A stretch of 64,000 bases of DNA from the human T2T-CHM13v2.0 reference genome, Homo sapiens (GCF_009914755.1 NC_060940.1), one strand, 5' to 3'; counted from the stretch's first letter, positions 27,301-36,300 are shown. The notes: generated by a model from the letters alone, not told the origin. A program made the numbers and translations.

Positions 27301-30300
27301 CTCTTCCCTCCTCCCTCCAGGGCTGGGGCACTCCTCCTCCCTCCTCTGAGGGCTTGGGGATGCTCCTCCTCCCTCTTTCCAGGGCTGGCACACTCCTCCT
27401 CCCTCCAGGGCTGGGGTGCACTCCTCCTCCTGGCGTCCATCCTCCTTCATGGCTGGCAGCTGCGTGGCTCCAGTGTCTGCCTCTGCTCTGGGGGCCACCT
27501 CTTCCGAGTGTCTGTCCAAGTTCCTTCTTATAGGGAGACTGGTCACTGGCTCAGGGTCCCACCCTACCGGCCTCATTTTAACCTGGTTATGAGGACCCTG
27601 CAGTAGCACCCTGCGATCTGTAGCAGGGGGATACATTCCAAGACCCCCCCCATGGACGCCTGACGCTGCGGATAGCACGGAACCCCTATATACCAAGCTT
27701 TTTCCTATACGAACGTCCTCATTTGCACGTCAGGCCCAGTAAGAGATTAACAAGATTAACTGGTAACATAGATTTCAGCACCGCACAGTAATAAAAGTTA
27801 CCTGCGCAAATGCTGTACACTGCTGTCCTGAACCCAGACCTCGCACCAGCAAATGAGGCAGTGGACAGCGAACCCTGGGATAAGAGGACCTGCTGTGTTT
27901 CCCTGCAACGCCACGTACCTAGGTGCGACGACTGGGGTTCAGGTGCATCTTCCCCCGCCACACCCAGCCCCCCCAACCGAGATAGAGTCTTGCTCTGTCA
28001 CCCAGGCTGGAGTGCAATGGCGCGATCTCAGCTCACTGCAACCTCCGCCTCCCAGGTTCAAGCTATTCTCCTGCCTCAGCCTCCTGAGCAGCTGGGACTA
28101 CAGGTGCCCTCCACCACCCCCAGCTAATTTTGCATTTTTAGTAGAGACAGGTTTTCTCTATGTTGGTCAGGCTGGTCATGAACTCCCCACCTCAGGTGAT
28201 CTGCTTGCCTCATCTCCCAAAGTGCTGGGATTACAGGTGCAAGCCACCATGCCCAGCCTCAAATGCAACTTTCAGGGGACACAATTCAACCCAGGACATG
28301 GGGGCCCACCTGCAGATGCCCCTGTTGGTCCTGCCCGTCCTCCCCAGGCCCCTCAGGACTCTGTATCAACAGATCTGGCCCCTGCTGTGCACAGCCCTCC
28401 CTCCCTGAGTCCTCCCTCAGAAAGGAGACCCCCCCTCTGCCTCCACTCCCCCTGCAGCTGTTTTCTGGGGCCTCCTCACCACTCACTCTGCCCACCGCTG
28501 CCCCGGGCCCTTCCCTCCAGCCCTGCGCCTGTGCCCTGAACTGCCTCTTGTCATAGGCACCAGCTTCCCTCCCAGGCCCACCCTCCTCCCTGAGGGCTGG
28601 CAGCCTCTCCTGTGGCCTGGACCCGCCCAACACAGTGGCTCTGCAGCCCCGAGCCCAGATGTCCAGCAGGGGCCAAAGCCCTTCCTCCTCCCTGGCAAAG
28701 GATCCCTTGCTTGTTCCCATGGCCCCACTGCAGGCCCTTCCCAGACACCACGTGTGCAGGGGCTGCTGGAAGCTGGCACTGCAGGATCCCTTCCTCATGG
28801 GCTGCTCGCTCAACCCACACCCCCTGAGGCCCATGCCCAGCCTGCCTTCATGCATTGCAATAGTAACCTTCCTACCAAGAAAAGCCTCATTGCATCCTGA
28901 ATCCTGACCTGCAAGAAAGGAGGAAGCTTGTGCCCTTGCGCGTGCCGGTCACCGCTTCCCAATGGGTCCTTTGCCGGGCTCCTAACCTGCTGTGCCACTG
29001 CAGGCTCAGCCTGGCTGTGCCTTCCATTCAGTAAGATCAGCCACACCAGTCCCCAGAAAGCTGCTCGGCCTCCAAGCCCTGCATGGAATGCCCCCCACTA
29101 CATCCTTGCAGGTGTCAGCCTGAACCATGTCAGGGCCCTGGACAGACTCACTGAGGACAGGCACCGACCCCCCAACCCGCAGGCCTGCCCACAGCCCCCT
29201 CATGCTCCCATACGGGGGCTTGATGACGGGCAGGGCCAAGCGGTTTGCCCATAGTCAGGTCAGCCAGGCTCGGGAACCTGGACCTGCCCTCTGCACCCAA
29301 GTCCCAGGATCAGGATATGGCAGCCCCTTCAGAGCTCACCGCCCCTCACACCTGGCAGAGATCCAGAAACTCCTCATGAAAATCAAAGACGCAAAGAAGT
29401 TGGGGGACAGGAACGGAGGCGCCTTTTCTCCCCTTGGAGTGAGGTGATCCCACCAGGCTCCGTGCTAAGTCGGCAGAAGCTTCACCCACCAGCTGCAGAG
29501 TGCGCAGCATGTGGAGGGGCTAAGCTGCCTTCAATGCTCACCCGACAAACTACGGCTCGCACTCAACTCAGAGGGCGTCAGCCACCACCTACCTCAGCCA
29601 AGTCACCTGTGCTGAAGCCCGGGAAGCTGCCTGGAGAGGGGACGTTCAGGGAGCGTGTGGGTGCCCCCGAGAGACTCCGGCCCCGCTTCAAAGCCAAGTG
29701 CCCCTCATCCAAAGAGAGCACCGGAGAGGGTCCTGGAGGCTCCACCACCCCTAGGGTGCTATCTAGGGCTCACTCCCAGAAATCAAGGGGGGAGACGGCT
29801 GCTGCACCGTCCTGGCCCACTTTCTCACCCGCAGCTTCTCCCCCACCTCACCTCACTGTTTCAAGGTTAGACCCAGATCTTCTGAAACATTCTCAAAGAA
29901 AGAGCTGACCCTTGTGCAGAGGCAAAATCTAGGTGAGGCTGGTCACCTAAGCGAGTACAGCTGGGTCAGGCCAGGCTGCCTCAGCCCCGGGCGTTAGGAA
30001 ACCACCGGCCCCGCTGAGTCACCGCGACACAGCCCGGCTCTGCCGTGACACAGCACATTCAAGGCGCCGCGGTCCCCCGGGGTCAGGGACACGCGAGGAC
30101 AAGCTACAGACTGCTCGGAACTCAGGACAGGGCGGGGGAGCCGCCGACGCCAGGGAAATTCCCGTACCACGCGGGCTGAGTGCAGGCGGGCCAGGCCAGG
30201 ACGCAGGGGTCGGCCCTCCCCCGCCCCGTTCCCCTGCCCTCTCCTGCCCCGCTCCGCTCCGCTCTCCTGCCCCGCTCCCCTGCCCTCCCTCGGGGCACCG

Positions 30301-33300: not shown

Positions 33301-36300
33301 GCAAGGCAGAAATGAGGAGCCCTTCCCTGGGCAGGGCAGCCCCATACTCCCAGCCAGTGAGGACGAAACAAACGCAAACACTGCTTGCGCCTGTGCCCCT
33401 GCCCCCGCCCCGACCAAGCCCCACCACTGGGCACTGGGTCCATCCAGGATTCCCACTCTCCCCATGGCCTCCTGAGGGAGGGACTGGCCCTGGATTCTGG
33501 AGGGTTCTCCGGCAGGTGCACAACACAGCCCACATAGGAACACCAGGGCTGCGAGGGGGAGATGCACACGGCCACAAAAGTTCCCAGTATTTGTGAAAGA
33601 GACCCTTTAAAAAATGCAGGTCGGGCACAATGGTTCACACCTGTAATCCCAGCACTTTGGGAGGCCGAGTTGGGAGGATCACCTGAGGTTGGGAGTTCAA
33701 GACCAGCCTGGCCAACGTGGTGAAACCTCATCTCTACTAAAAACACAAAAAACGGCCAGGTGTGGTGGCAGGCGCCTATAGTCCCAGCTACTCAGGAGGC
33801 TGAGGCAGGAGAATCACTTGAACCCAGGAGGTGGAGGTTGCAGTGAGCCAAGATTGTGCCACTGCCCTCCAGTCTGGGTGACAGAGCGAGACTCTGTCTC
33901 AAAAAAAACACACACACACATGCCGGGCACAGTGGCTCACACCTGCAACCCCAGCACTTTGGGAGGCCCAGGCGGGCAGATCACGAGGTCAGGAGATCAA
34001 GACCAGGCTGGCCAATATGGTAAAACCCGATCTCTACTAAAAATACAAAAAAAAAAAAAAAAAAATTAGCCGGGCGTAGTGGCAGGTGCCTGTAATCCCA
34101 GCTACTCTGGAGGCTGAGACAGGAGATTGGCGTGAAGTCGGGAGGCAGAGGTTGCAGTGAGCCAAGATCACGCCACTGCACTCCAGCCTGGGCAACAAGA
34201 GAGAAACTCCGTCTCAAAAAAAAAAAAAAAACAAAATCAAAACAAAACAAAACCCACACACACACAAAAGAAAAATGTAAAGGCCTGGGCTCAACCCCAA
34301 GCAGATGCAGGGATGGGACGGCCCAGCAGCAACACAGGCCAAGAGCTGTGCCCAGAAGATGCACCTGGTTGCAGAGGTGCTGAGAGCGGGGCCCTGGGTG
34401 CTTGGGGGACTGAGGACCGTCCTGGGGCCTCAGGAGCTGCACCTGGCTTTCCTCGCAGACACCACTCAGGATGGGACTGGTCTAGTGTCCTGCCGATGTG
34501 TGGTCTGTGGCCTAAGTGGCCGCTGGGAAGAGTCTCTCTCTCCTCGGCCTCCTTGGCCGGCATCGTCTAGGAGTTGCTGGGGGCTTGCAGCTGGGCCTGA
34601 GCAGTTCCGTGTGGGGCAACCACCAACGACCAGAAGCTGCGGCTCTCGGGCAAGAGTCATTGCGGGTCTGGCCGCCGGGCCGCCGCCCACATTGACGCGG
34701 GTCCTGACGGTGCTGGGGTCCCACTCCAAGTCCCCAGAGTGTGTCCAGGCAGGGACTGCAGCGAGGGCCCCCACCACGTGGCTCCAGCAGCCCTGTCCTC
34801 CTGATCCCATGCCCAGCTCCCCCGCCACACCCTGCACAGCAGAGGATGTAGGAGAGGAAGGGGTGGGCTCCAGGGCTGCAGCAGCAGAGGCCAGACCCGG
34901 GCTGAGCTGAGCAGGGCCCGGCCTCACTGTACCCCCAACCCCATCCCATTCCACCCCAGCCCAGGGACAGAGAACTTGGAGACCACCACAGGTGGCCTTC
35001 CCTGAGTCCCTCACTGTCACTGTCAGGACAGAGAGGCAGGTTTGGGTCCCTTGGGCGCTGGTGGCCATGGAACATGGGGCTTCAGCACATCCCATCACTC
35101 ACCAAGCGTCTCTGCAAGCAAAGCCCTGCACGGGTGTGGCCAGGTGTCCCCCACCACCCCAACACGGCGGGTGTCCCCCACCACCCCAACACGGCAGGTG
35201 TCCCCACCACCCCAACACGGCCTTTCCCCAGGGGCTGAAAGGGACCAAGGACACACACAGCCCAGCTCCTGGCACTGTCTTGCCCCCAGCTCTGCCTGCT
35301 GCCCACTCCGGGCTTCTGGAAGAATCTGCCCCCCAGGGTCTGGGCTCCCAGCCAGGCCCCCACGGGTCCCCACAGCCCAGCACCATCACGTGTCTCAGTG
35401 CCCAGTGACTCCCTCCAACTAAAGGCCTCCCAAAGCTGCCAGCCCAGGTGCTCACAGCTGTGCCCCCGACTCCAAGCCTTCACTGGACTCCCCACCCCAT
35501 CACTGTCCCCCACCCTCAGTGCCCTCACTGGCCCACAACCCCTACTTTCAATTTTTTTTTTGAGATGGTCTCACTCTCTCACCCAGGCTGGAGTACAGTG
35601 GTGTAATCACAGCTCACTGCAGCCTCGACCTCCTGGGTTCAAGGGATCCTCCCACCTCAGCCTCCCAAGTAGCTGGGACCACAGGTGCGCACCACCATGC
35701 TTGGCTAATTATTTTATTTTTAGTAGAGTCGGGGTCTCACTATGTTGCCCAGGCTGGTCTTCAACTTCTGGGCTCAAGTGATCCTCCTGCCTCGGCCTCC
35801 CACAGCGCTGGGAGCACAGGCGGCCAACTCCCACAACTCCCATCATCTGTCAACAACCTCCCCGTTCTCAGTCCCTGAGCCGGACGGCGCCTGCTCTGCC
35901 TGGCTCCTGGGAGGCTCCTCGTCCCCAGCGCCTGCGGCACCCAGGCCAGGAGCCTCTCTGAGTCAGGGCTTGTTTCCACAACCACACGTGCAACACAACC
36001 AAAGTGACAGATGACTGAAAATACGCGTCTGGCTTCTCTACAAAAATGACGATTCTGTAACATGTCCTGAAATAGAAGCGCTGTCCCTGAAAAGCTACAG
36101 CATGAACACAGAAGGAGGTCAGGGAGAAAGGAGGACGGTGCTGGACTTACCGAGGACGGCCTCCACAGTGCTGCTGGCGGGGCCGAGCGGGAGGGCACGG
36201 GCGGGGGGCGCGGGCAGCGCAGTGGGGGAGGAGCTGCCGGAGCCGGCGCTGGACGCCAGGCTGGACGCCACGCTGGAGCTCACGCTGGGGGCCGGCGGGT

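What the first reader, a model, noticed from the sequence alone, without database searches (positions are those of the whole stretch)
29960..36150. UNKL looks like a splittable gene: a stop-and-restart cassette in one intron separates the RNA-binding half from the E3-ligase half
Within the 12.4-kb intron after E10, in transcription order, lie a frame-compatible terminal exon (34875-34466), a minus-strand AATAAA (32237-32232), and then a CpG-island promoter with donors (about 31060-29960). The locus could thus make full-length CCCH+RING protein, or two independent tandem transcripts: zinc-finger-only and coiled-coil+RING-only. The latter could heterodimerise through the coiled coil or act dominantly. 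The elements are seen in the sequence; their coordinated function is inferred. This is my best candidate for an under-described regulatory system here.
Basis: partly seen in the sequence, partly recalled or inferred. Interest (0 to 1): 0.7.

Follow-up and report, generated by a model that had tools for sequence, protein, structure and literature searches.

The report
UNKL internal promoter and doubtful stop-exon
A CpG-island promoter inside the human UNKL gene, already annotated, makes a short protein without the RNA-binding fingers, while the proposed upstream stop exon appears in only one old gene model, so the "splittable gene" is known parts joined by an unproven link.

Summary
All four elements are in the sequence at the stated coordinates. 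The CpG island (29950-31000; GC 0.75-0.79, CpG o/e 0.82-0.97) is a real TATA-less promoter with a GC-box array. RefSeq already places four alternative first exons in it. Spliced to exon 23757 they give a 232-aa ORF with a disordered tail, coiled coil and RING but no CCCH fingers. The same MTPPQQ start heads annotated short isoforms in primates, colugo, whale, deer and horse. The paralogue UNK has no such island and no long intron.

The "terminal exon" 34875-34466 is also public. It is the exact C-terminus of one 756-aa finger-only human model (GenBank "isoform CRA_b", UniRef "Isoform 6"). That record stands alone and carries several other non-RefSeq exons. The tail has no coding-like GC3 and is statistically ordinary for this GC-rich intron. 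No exon between 30614 and 36150 appears among the exons the RefSeq table names. The one published intronic poly(A) call for UNKL that carries coordinates maps to another intron. The AATAAA lies 2.2 kb downstream in a weak context, and such hexamers are commoner on the opposite strand.

Verdict: known isoform parts. The coordinated stop-and-restart system is unsupported but not excluded.

The parts
36151..36328 (-). UNKL exon 'E10' (Ser/Pro-rich linker). It ends with one base of a codon, and its donor is G|gtaagt.
   Evidence: Hub table. Reading through the donor gives only 10 codons before a stop at 36121.
34466..34875 (-). Alternative terminal coding exon: 136 codons plus TGA. It is the C-terminus of the public finger-only model P0002.
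   Evidence: AG, frame, stop; acceptor 8.6 bits, rank 13 of 1001; 99% identical and 100% covered in a 756-aa record; no Pfam family. GC by codon position 0.71/0.64/0.63.
32232..32237 (-). AATAAA hexamer, 2.2 kb downstream of the stop codon and just past an antisense Alu. ATTAAA follows at 32164-32159.
32934..32994 (.). Arm of a non-Alu inverted repeat. Its partner is 34934-34994 (61 nt, 93% complementary). The pair brackets the alternative exon and the Alu cluster.
29950..31000 (-). Single-copy CpG island serving as the internal alternative promoter of UNKL.
   Evidence: RefSeq first exons in the hub table.
30632..30706 (-). 20-bp tandem array (3.6 copies) carrying three GGGGCGGGG boxes, 28-94 nt upstream of the annotated starts at 30613 and 30590.
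30471..30613 (-). Annotated alternative first exons 30532-30613/30612, 30487-30590 and 30471-30590. None contains an ATG, and their 5' ends are not preceded by AG. The donors at 30487 and 30471 lie in a 16-bp tandem duplication.
   Evidence: Hub table.
29852..30405 (-). Fourth annotated first exon (554 nt, two short upstream ORFs), with donor GAG|gtgagg.
   Evidence: Hub table.
23665..23757 (-). Exon 'E11', the first shared exon of long and short mRNAs. It is 5'UTR in the short mRNAs, where it holds an ATG-TGA start-stop at 23730-23725. It is homologous to the UNK exon that begins SALDD.
22355..22357 (-). ATG that opens the 232-aa ORF of the short isoforms (context TCAGCCATGA).
   Evidence: The same MTPPQQPP start is found in 5 of 8 aligned short isoforms of other mammals.
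19242..20000 (-). Two exons encoding the W-containing IWDF motif (19977-19966) and the coiled coil.
18371..18526 (-). Last coding exon, encoding the RING finger.
   Evidence: PF13920, E 3.7e-10.

Best explanation
The real functional element is an intragenic CpG-island promoter in the 12.4-kb intron of UNKL. It is TATA-less, with an Sp1-type GC-box array and several start sites. It fires in the sense direction, independently of the main promoter (inferred). Its non-coding first exons splice to exon 23757, and translation starts at the ATG at 22357.

The 232-aa product lacks every CCCH finger and the residues encoded by E11. It keeps a disordered Ser/Pro tail with the invariant IWDF motif (the counterpart of UNK's CCR4-NOT-binding SLiM 2), the coiled coil and the RING. 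By homology to UNK it should dimerise through the coiled coil, with itself or with full-length UNKL, and so act as an RNA-blind effector or modulator (inferred).

The upstream exon 34875-34466 is a weakly supported alternative last exon known from one legacy model. It is most likely rare or unproductive and is not coupled to the promoter.
For: Promoter:
- The island's composition marks it as a CpG island.
- It carries 5 of the window's 13 GGGGCGGGG boxes, against 1.8 expected for the whole window. Three of them lie in a tandem array 28-94 nt upstream of the annotated starts.
- It holds four RefSeq first exons whose 5' ends lack an AG (hub table).
- Their donors rank 4th, 8th, 20th and 22nd of 760 GTs in the intron.
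- TCGA SpliceSeq lists an alternate-promoter event, UNKL-33078-AP. Which promoter it refers to is not stated (PMC7477087, passages).

Product:
- The first long ORF is 232 aa in the canonical frame from all four first exons.
- Pfam places the CCCH fingers only in exons 43818-53999 and the RING in 18374-18526.
- Short RING-only isoforms of 229-232 aa are annotated in primates (a cluster of 22 members), colugo, whale and deer. 5 of the 8 short forms I aligned start MTPPQQPP, and [13 protein letters not shown] is invariant in 8 of 8.
- The AlphaFold model of the 232-aa primate form has residues 1-63 disordered, helix 64-141 at pLDDT 89-96, helix 162-187 and a low-confidence RING. A heptad scan agrees.
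- UNK forms exclusive dimers through its coiled coil, and W622/F625 contact CCR4-NOT (PMC11009413, passages). The UNKL exons are 46% and 53% identical to the UNK coiled-coil exons, and SIWD-F aligns with SIWEHF.

Weak stop half:
- No exon between 30614 and 36150 is among the exons the hub table names.
- P0002 is a one-member cluster.
- GC3 is 0.63 in the tail against 0.72-0.90 in 9 real exons. P0002's other extra exons have GC3 of 0.42-0.68.
- Only unspliced ORFs otherwise carry the tail.
- UNKL is absent from the one supplementary file held for the Singh 2018 intronic poly(A) atlas.
- The InPACT site maps elsewhere.
Against: P0002 shows that a gene model joined E10 to 34875 with canonical splice sites throughout. 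I could not see what transcript evidence lay behind it.

The acceptor scores above the leave-one-out median of 31 true acceptors (8.6 against 7.8 bits).

The tables of PMC11541570 list UNKL among genes with annotated truncated isoforms. The truncation ratios are 0.016/0.087 ('refseq' set) and 0.34/0.62 ('ucsc' set). They give no coordinates, so this could be the intron-10 event.

24 short assembled contigs cover the unspliced region and could be RNA.

Poly(A) hexamers exceed a homogeneous Markov model (3 against 0.33).

RefSeq labels four pieces of the island 'silencer' (hub table).

No CAGE, chromatin or long-read data could be consulted. Dimerisation and CCR4-NOT binding of UNKL are inferred from the paralogue only. 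The complex prediction never ran.
Confidence: 0.68

Rival explanations
1. One reading: a stop-and-restart cassette. Transcripts from the main promoter often splice E10 to 34875 and are cleaved after AATAAA 32237 or ATTAAA 32164. This yields a finger-only RNA binder. The island then starts a second, non-overlapping unit for the coiled-coil and RING half. The locus would behave as two tandem genes, or as one, depending on read-through.
For: All elements lie in the right order within one intron. Both products exist as public models. All three minus-strand poly(A) hexamers of the intron lie upstream of the island, and none lies in the 6.2 kb between the island and E11. Ordinal coupling of upstream starts with upstream ends is a described genome-wide tendency (PITA; PMC10802295, abstract and passages). 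UNKL appears with sizeable truncation ratios in PMC11541570, without coordinates.
Against: No exon there is among the exons the hub table names. P0002 stands alone and carries other unsupported exons. No spliced protein fragment with the tail exists in a 5.8-billion-protein collection. The AATAAA lies 2.2 kb and 3.5 antisense Alus away from the stop, in a weak context. The hexamers are not strand-biased. The only intronic poly(A) site for UNKL with coordinates lies in another intron. The layout is absent from UNK.
Confidence: 0.1
2. Exon 34875 is used occasionally, but as an unproductive event. It would be either a poison exon, using a weak donor such as CAG|gtgcat after 34365 and carrying a premature stop that triggers decay, or a cryptic last exon normally suppressed. 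Its effect would be to lower full-length output, not to make a stable finger-only protein.
For: The acceptor is good. The tail has no coding signature and no domain. Donor-like sites lie downstream of the stop, the best scoring 6.4 bits at 34365 and within the range of true donors (1.3-12.8, median 8.6). Flanking inverted repeats, both Alu pairs and the 61-nt non-Alu pair, could modulate its inclusion.
Against: No transcript evidence was seen either way. The candidate donors score below the median. A cassette of about 510 nt would be unusually long.
Confidence: 0.17
3. The island is not mainly a promoter of coding mRNAs. It would instead be an orphan CpG island, enhancer or silencer whose annotated first exons are minor by-products.
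For: RefSeq functional elements call 30231-30300, 30371-30420, 30461-30540 and 30571-30709 'silencer' (hub table). The short mRNAs carry an ATG-TGA start-stop in their leader, which could limit translation.
Against: The island holds four annotated first exons with strong donors and a GC-box array at the right distance. The start codon and short isoform models are conserved across five mammalian orders.
Confidence: 0.05

Closest known systems
Intragenic CpG-island alternative promoters that give N-terminally truncated isoforms (for example the SHANK3 intragenic promoters and the deltaN forms of p63/p73; examples recalled, not checked here)
   Same: A CpG island lies inside an intron. It has its own non-coding first exons spliced to the next common exon, and the product lacks the N-terminal domain.
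   Different: Here the missing part is the whole RNA-binding domain of an RNA-binding E3-like protein. Tissue use and methylation control are unknown.
Positional initiation-termination axis, PITA (Calvo-Roitberg et al., PMC10802295; abstract and passages read)
   Different: PITA was defined from single-molecule reads. UNKL is not mentioned in that text (0 occurrences), and no coupling data exist here.
Intronic polyadenylation giving C-terminally truncated proteins (atlases PMC5928244 and PMC10960005)
   Same: An alternative last exon inside an intron with an intron-encoded tail, as in model P0002.
   Different: No mapped cleavage site in this intron. The UNKL entry of PMC10960005 is a composite exon in another intron, next to a genomic A20 run.
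UNK (Unkempt), the paralogue on chromosome 17 (PMC11009413; passages read)
   Same: Same exon phases and domain order: CCCH fingers, a disordered region with SLiMs, coiled coil and RING. The coiled-coil exons are 46-53% identical.
   Different: UNK is compact, about 12 kb from the finger exon to the RING. The homologous intron is about 0.9 kb, and there is no CpG island in the gene body. The internal promoter is therefore UNKL-specific.
Conjoined or read-through genes such as Kua-UEV (recalled, not checked)
   Same: Two units that can be expressed apart or as one fused protein.
   Different: In UNKL the fused form is ancestral. The fly unk protein already has both halves, according to the passages of PMC4161320 and PMC8357790. 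Any split would be derived, not a fusion.

Membership tests
CpG-island promoter | At least 500 nt with G+C of 0.55 or more and CpG observed/expected of 0.65 or more (thresholds recalled) | tested here: met
   Windows 30000-30999 have GC 0.75-0.79 and o/e 0.82-0.97.
CpG-island promoter | Transcription start sites inside the island | tested here: met
   The RefSeq first exons start at 30613, 30612, 30590 and 30405 (hub table), and none is preceded by AG. This is annotation only; no CAGE was seen.
CpG-island promoter | Sp1-type GC boxes upstream of the starts | tested here: met
   Three GGGGCGGGG boxes lie 28-94 nt upstream.
CpG-island promoter | Unmethylated DNA, H3K4me3 and capped 5' ends in cells | not testable with these tools
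   No expression or chromatin data are on hand.
Alternative last exon by intronic polyadenylation | A usable 3' splice site and an in-frame stop | tested here: met
   The acceptor scores 8.6 bits, rank 13 of 1001. The stop is at 34468-34466.
Alternative last exon by intronic polyadenylation | A mapped cleavage site with a poly(A) signal 10-30 nt upstream and a U/GU-rich downstream element | tested here: inconclusive
   The hexamers at 32237 and 32164 have weak contexts. No site for this intron appears in the supplements searched. The tables of PMC11541570 give no coordinates.
Alternative last exon by intronic polyadenylation | Spliced transcripts that contain the junction | tested here: inconclusive
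   One protein model has the junction (P0002). Otherwise only unspliced ORFs carry the tail.
PITA-type or split gene | On single molecules, upstream starts pair with the upstream end and downstream starts with the downstream end | not testable with these tools
   This needs long reads.
Unkempt family (CCCH fingers plus RING) | UNK-type CCCH fingers and a C-terminal C3HC4 RING | tested here: met
   PF25427, PF23035, PF23261 and PF00642 match the upstream exons. PF13920 matches the last exon.
Unkempt family (CCCH fingers plus RING) | A dimerising coiled coil and W-containing SLiM 2 | tested here: inconclusive
   Sequence homology and heptads are present. Binding was not tested.

The most novel reading that the evidence does not exclude
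UNKL, unlike its paralogue UNK, may have evolved into a facultatively split gene. In some tissues most transcripts from the main promoter would end in the Alu-rich stretch upstream of the island. They would give a finger-only RNA binder with no effector motifs. The island would give an effector-only protein (IWDF motif, coiled coil, RING). The ratio of full-length to split products would then set whether UNKL-bound mRNAs are coupled to CCR4-NOT. The short form could also dimerise with full-length UNKL, or possibly UNK, to make half-blind dimers.
Probability: 0.08. Interest if true: 0.55.

Novelty: already known. Interest (0 to 1): 0.25.

Why it matters
UNKL is little studied. In the papers I could search, nothing discusses its isoforms. 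Work on UNK shows that the RNA-binding domain, the effector motifs and the dimerising coiled coil are separable modules, all needed for function.

A conserved natural isoform that keeps the effector and dimer modules but loses RNA binding is therefore a plausible built-in modulator. It should be taken into account in any UNKL knock-out, antibody or expression study. Many probes and C-terminal antibodies would detect the short form.

The gain over current annotation is modest. It consists of the domain reading of the short isoform, its conservation, and the finding that UNK lacks the arrangement.

Tried and rejected
1. Complex prediction of the coiled coil was never accepted because the queue was full. 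The job was first the 86-aa exon in two copies. It was then residues 60-232 of alignment A1 in two copies. There is no result of any kind.
3. Pfam on the 135-aa tail found 0 families.
4. Rfam on 23000-37000, both strands, found 0 matches at gathering score.
5. Reading through the E10 donor as a composite last exon gives only 10 codons.
6. RefSeq exon 22080-22503 was considered as an intronic terminal exon. It was rejected because a GT donor follows it.
7. The NRF2 ChIP peak 'near the TSS of UNKL' (PMC3424561) could not be placed, because the supplementary file was unreadable.
8. Literature searches used: UNKL+isoform (106 papers, many of them German 'unkl...' words), UNKL+Unkempt (11), C16orf28 (2), UNKL+'alternative promoter' (1), UNKL+'intronic polyadenylation' (0), UNKL+polyadenylation (7) and UNKL+promoter+isoforms (11). 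In the passages I read, from PMC4161320, PMC8357790, PMC12528612, PMC9354703, PMC6323698, PMC13430299, PMC2478707, PMC7477087 and PMC3424561, none describes the internal promoter, the finger-only form or their arrangement. Supplements of bioRxiv preprints, the oversized and PDF files of PMC10960005, and file 7 of PMC11541570 were not seen and may bear on this.
9. The TJP1P1 span was compared with the whole genome. No TJP1-like locus appeared, only a dispersed repeat of about 100 nt.

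
Full report
**What is in the sequence.** The window is human chr16 (T2T) and UNKL runs on the minus strand. The intron between exon 36151-36328 ('E10') and exon 23665-23757 ('E11') is 12,393 nt.
- AG sits at 34877-34876. An open frame follows in the phase left by E10 and runs 136 codons to TGA at 34468-34466.
- AATAAA is at 32237-32232.
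- A CpG island spans about 29950-31000, with GC 0.75-0.79 and CpG o/e 0.82-0.97.
- GT donors follow 30532, 30487, 30471 and 29852.

Pfam confirms the domain split around this intron. UNK-type CCCH fingers are encoded by exons between 43818 and 53999. The RING (PF13920, E 3.7e-10) is encoded by the last exon, 18374-18526.

**The restart half is real, conserved and already annotated.** The island is single-copy in the genome, apart from a G-rich low-complexity stretch.
- It holds 5 of the window's 13 GGGGCGGGG boxes. The expectation for the whole window is 1.8, and 0 of 100 shuffles reach 13.
- Three of the boxes sit in a 20-bp tandem array at 30632-30706, 28-94 nt upstream of the annotated starts.
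- The hub's RefSeq table lists four alternative first exons here: 30532-30613/30612, 30487-30590, 30471-30590 and 29852-30405. Their 5' ends are not preceded by AG, so they are starts and not internal exons.
- Their donors rank 4th, 8th, 20th and 22nd among 760 GTs of the intron under a matrix built from the window's 29 annotated donors.
- The three short first exons have no ATG, and the two ATGs of 29852-30405 open only 25- and 7-codon ORFs. Joined to E11, all four give the same first long ORF of 232 aa in the canonical frame, from the ATG at 22357-22355.

The product has a Ser/Pro/Gly-rich first 64 residues, heptad-rich segments at about 65-142 and 164-199, and then the RING.

I searched a large protein collection with the coiled-coil exon. 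It returned 336 proteins at E<=1e-10 out of 850 candidates, of which 120 were listed. Among them are RING-only short isoforms:
- a 232-aa primate cluster of 22 members;
- 231 aa in colugo;
- 229 aa in a whale;
- 231 aa in a deer;
- 269 aa in a horse.

I aligned 8 of the short named forms, chosen by length. Longer ones such as the 290-, 301- and 321-aa entries, and the unnamed ones, were left out. 5 of the 8 begin MTPPQQPP, and [13 protein letters not shown] is invariant in 8 of 8. An AlphaFold model of the 232-aa primate form has residues 1-63 disordered, a long helix 64-141 (pLDDT 89-96), a second helix 162-187 and a low-confidence RING. Its mean pLDDT is 62.6, so only the helices can be trusted.

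UNK lies on chromosome 17 of the same genome. I fetched 56 kb around it. The UNKL exons map there in order within about 12 kb.
- The UNK exon homologous to E11 begins SALDD, in the same phase.
- It lies about 0.9 kb after the weak match to E10 (E 0.037), so that anchor is soft.
- No 500-nt window between the finger exons and the RING is CpG-island-like. The only such windows lie 27-33 kb upstream.

The long intron with its island is therefore specific to UNKL. Mouse Unkl DNA could not be examined with these tools. The short-isoform models in other mammals are the only comparative evidence.

**The stop half is public too, but thin.** By sequence statistics the exon is unremarkable.
- Its acceptor scores 8.6 bits, above the leave-one-out median of 31 true acceptors (7.8). 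It is 13th of 1001 AGs in the intron, and 3 of those top 13 also give tails over 130 codons.
- 50 of 1004 AGs give tails of 136 codons or more. Stop-free runs of 150-235 codons occur in all six frames of this 60% GC intron.
- The tail has no Pfam family.
- Its GC by codon position is 0.71/0.64/0.63. Nine real UNKL exons have GC3 of 0.72-0.90.

A search with the tail changed my reading, however. One protein of 4269 candidates matched at 99% identity over 100% of the query. It is a 756-aa human record named 'unkempt-like (Drosophila), isoform CRA_b' by NCBI and 'Isoform 6 of Putative E3 ubiquitin-protein ligase UNKL' by UniRef. Its C-terminus is exactly E10 joined to 34875 and ending at the same stop, with one residue different. 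It has five CCCH families and no RING. So a finger-only UNKL model already exists.

The support for that model is weak:
- The cluster has a single member, and no primate model shares the tail.
- The model also contains exons absent from the RefSeq list: 59187-59104, 56722-56546, 46739-46572 and 45422-45339. It uses alternative acceptors at 50224 and 36364. All have GT-AG borders, but GC3 is only 0.42-0.68.
- In the shorter length class the only hit is a 209-aa ORF from short assembled contigs that reads straight through the acceptor. It is therefore unspliced.

**Termination signal.** The intron has three AATAAA/ATTAAA hexamers on the minus strand: at 35718 (inside a sense Alu), at 32237 and at 32164.
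- All three are upstream of the island. That exceeds a homogeneous Markov-1 expectation (0.33; 1 of 300 simulations reached 3).
- The plus strand has five, and other UNKL introns have 0-1.1 per kb. I put the excess down to AT-rich patches beside Alu insertions.
- Between the stop and 32237 lie 2.2 kb with three and a half antisense Alus.
- The true UNKL 3' end has ATTAAA at 15355 followed by a GU-rich element. The intronic AATAAA has no UGUA upstream, and at +10 to +50 downstream U is 0.23 and G+U 0.40.

**Published intronic poly(A) data.**
- UNKL is absent from the one supplementary file held for PMC5928244.
- PMC10960005, Supplementary Data 4, lists 'UNKL|chr16:1395147:- Composite chr16:1395147-1397295' in 12 of 12 fetal bone-marrow cell types.
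- The GNPTG row of the same table fixes the offset between that assembly and the window at 16,177 near window position 4416. The UNKL site can then lie only around window 45.7-47.3 kb, in intron 45143-48104. For it to lie in the intron in question the offset would have to be under about 5 kb.
- If the entry is anchored at the acceptor 48222, the site falls about 20 nt from a genomic A20 run, an Alu tail at 46112-46093. It may therefore be internal priming.
- PMC11541570 lists UNKL truncation ratios of 0.016/0.087 in the 'refseq' set and 0.34/0.62 in the 'ucsc' set. It gives no coordinates, which leaves the door open.

**Mechanism proposed.**
- Shown: the island has the features of a promoter and holds annotated start sites, and its mRNAs encode a finger-less protein with coiled coil and RING.
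- Inferred from UNK (PMC11009413, passages): UNK's coiled coil (residues 643-767) makes exclusive dimers. Monomeric mutants are inactive. W622/F625 (SLiM 2, residues 617-625) contact CCR4-NOT.
- UNKL's exons are 46% and 53% identical to the UNK coiled-coil exons. They keep the W and F, with one residue fewer between them.
- The short isoform should therefore dimerise with itself or with full-length UNKL, and may engage CCR4-NOT without binding RNA.
- It lacks the E11-encoded segment. By my rough residue count the UNK counterpart of that segment overlaps SLiM 1 (residues 507-537). That count is approximate.

UNKL is not mentioned in that paper (0 occurrences).

**Comparison and verdict.** The arrangement is an ordinary intragenic CpG-island alternative promoter plus a doubtful alternative last exon. 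That work does not mention UNKL.

Both isoform classes are already in public records, so the finding is 'already known' at the level of parts. The coordinated system remains an untested inference, and I put it at about 0.1.

New here:
- the domain reading of the short isoform;
- its conservation across mammalian orders;
- its absence from UNK;
- the weakness of the stop half.

Interest 0.25.

Noticed in passing
window 45143-48104 (about 46074-46112): The one published intronic poly(A) call for UNKL that carries coordinates (InPACT, composite exon, 12 of 12 cell types) maps to this upstream intron inside the finger-coding region. If it is anchored at the acceptor 48222, it falls about 20 nt from a genomic A20 run at the end of a sense Alu. 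It may therefore be internal priming.
   Followed up: partly
window 32934-32994 and 34934-34994: A non-Alu inverted repeat (61 nt, 93% complementary, about 75 nt at 91% in the genome search) brackets the alternative exon and the Alu cluster. In the pre-mRNA it could loop out 1.9 kb. Its origin and effect are unknown.
   Followed up: partly
window 30013-30022 and 30572-30582 (minus): The window's only two TGASTCAGC matches both lie in the island: GTGACTCAGC and TGAGTCAGCAT. The total count is at chance (2 against 2.48). A ChIP-seq paper names UNKL among genes with an NRF2 peak near a TSS (PMC3424561), but the peak's position could not be read.
   Followed up: partly
window 23725-23730 (minus): An ATG directly followed by TGA (a start-stop) lies in E11. 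E11 is coding, in another frame, in the long mRNA but is leader sequence in the short mRNAs. It might damp translation of the 232-aa ORF.
   Followed up: no
window 30458-30488: A 16-bp tandem duplication (1.9 copies, 93% matches) carries the two annotated donors after 30487 and 30471. The twin donors therefore arose by duplication.
   Followed up: no
window 23259-24029 (plus): The span annotated as TJP1P1 overlaps UNKL exon E11 on the other strand. A whole-genome DNA search found no TJP1-like locus, only a dispersed repeat of about 100 nt at 23507-23610.
   Followed up: partly
window 59187-59104, 56722-56546, 46739-46572, 45422-45339 (minus): The public 756-aa model P0002 contains these extra in-frame exons with GT-AG borders. 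They are absent from the RefSeq exon list and have no GC3 excess.
   Followed up: partly
window 35141-35221: A 27-bp tandem repeat (3.0 copies, 94% matches) lies about 270 nt upstream of the 34875 acceptor.
   Followed up: no
window 58934-59037: Three more GGGGCGGGG boxes lie at the start of UNKL-AS1, beside RefSeq 'silencer' 58813-58989. This is probably another CpG-island promoter inside UNKL.
   Followed up: no
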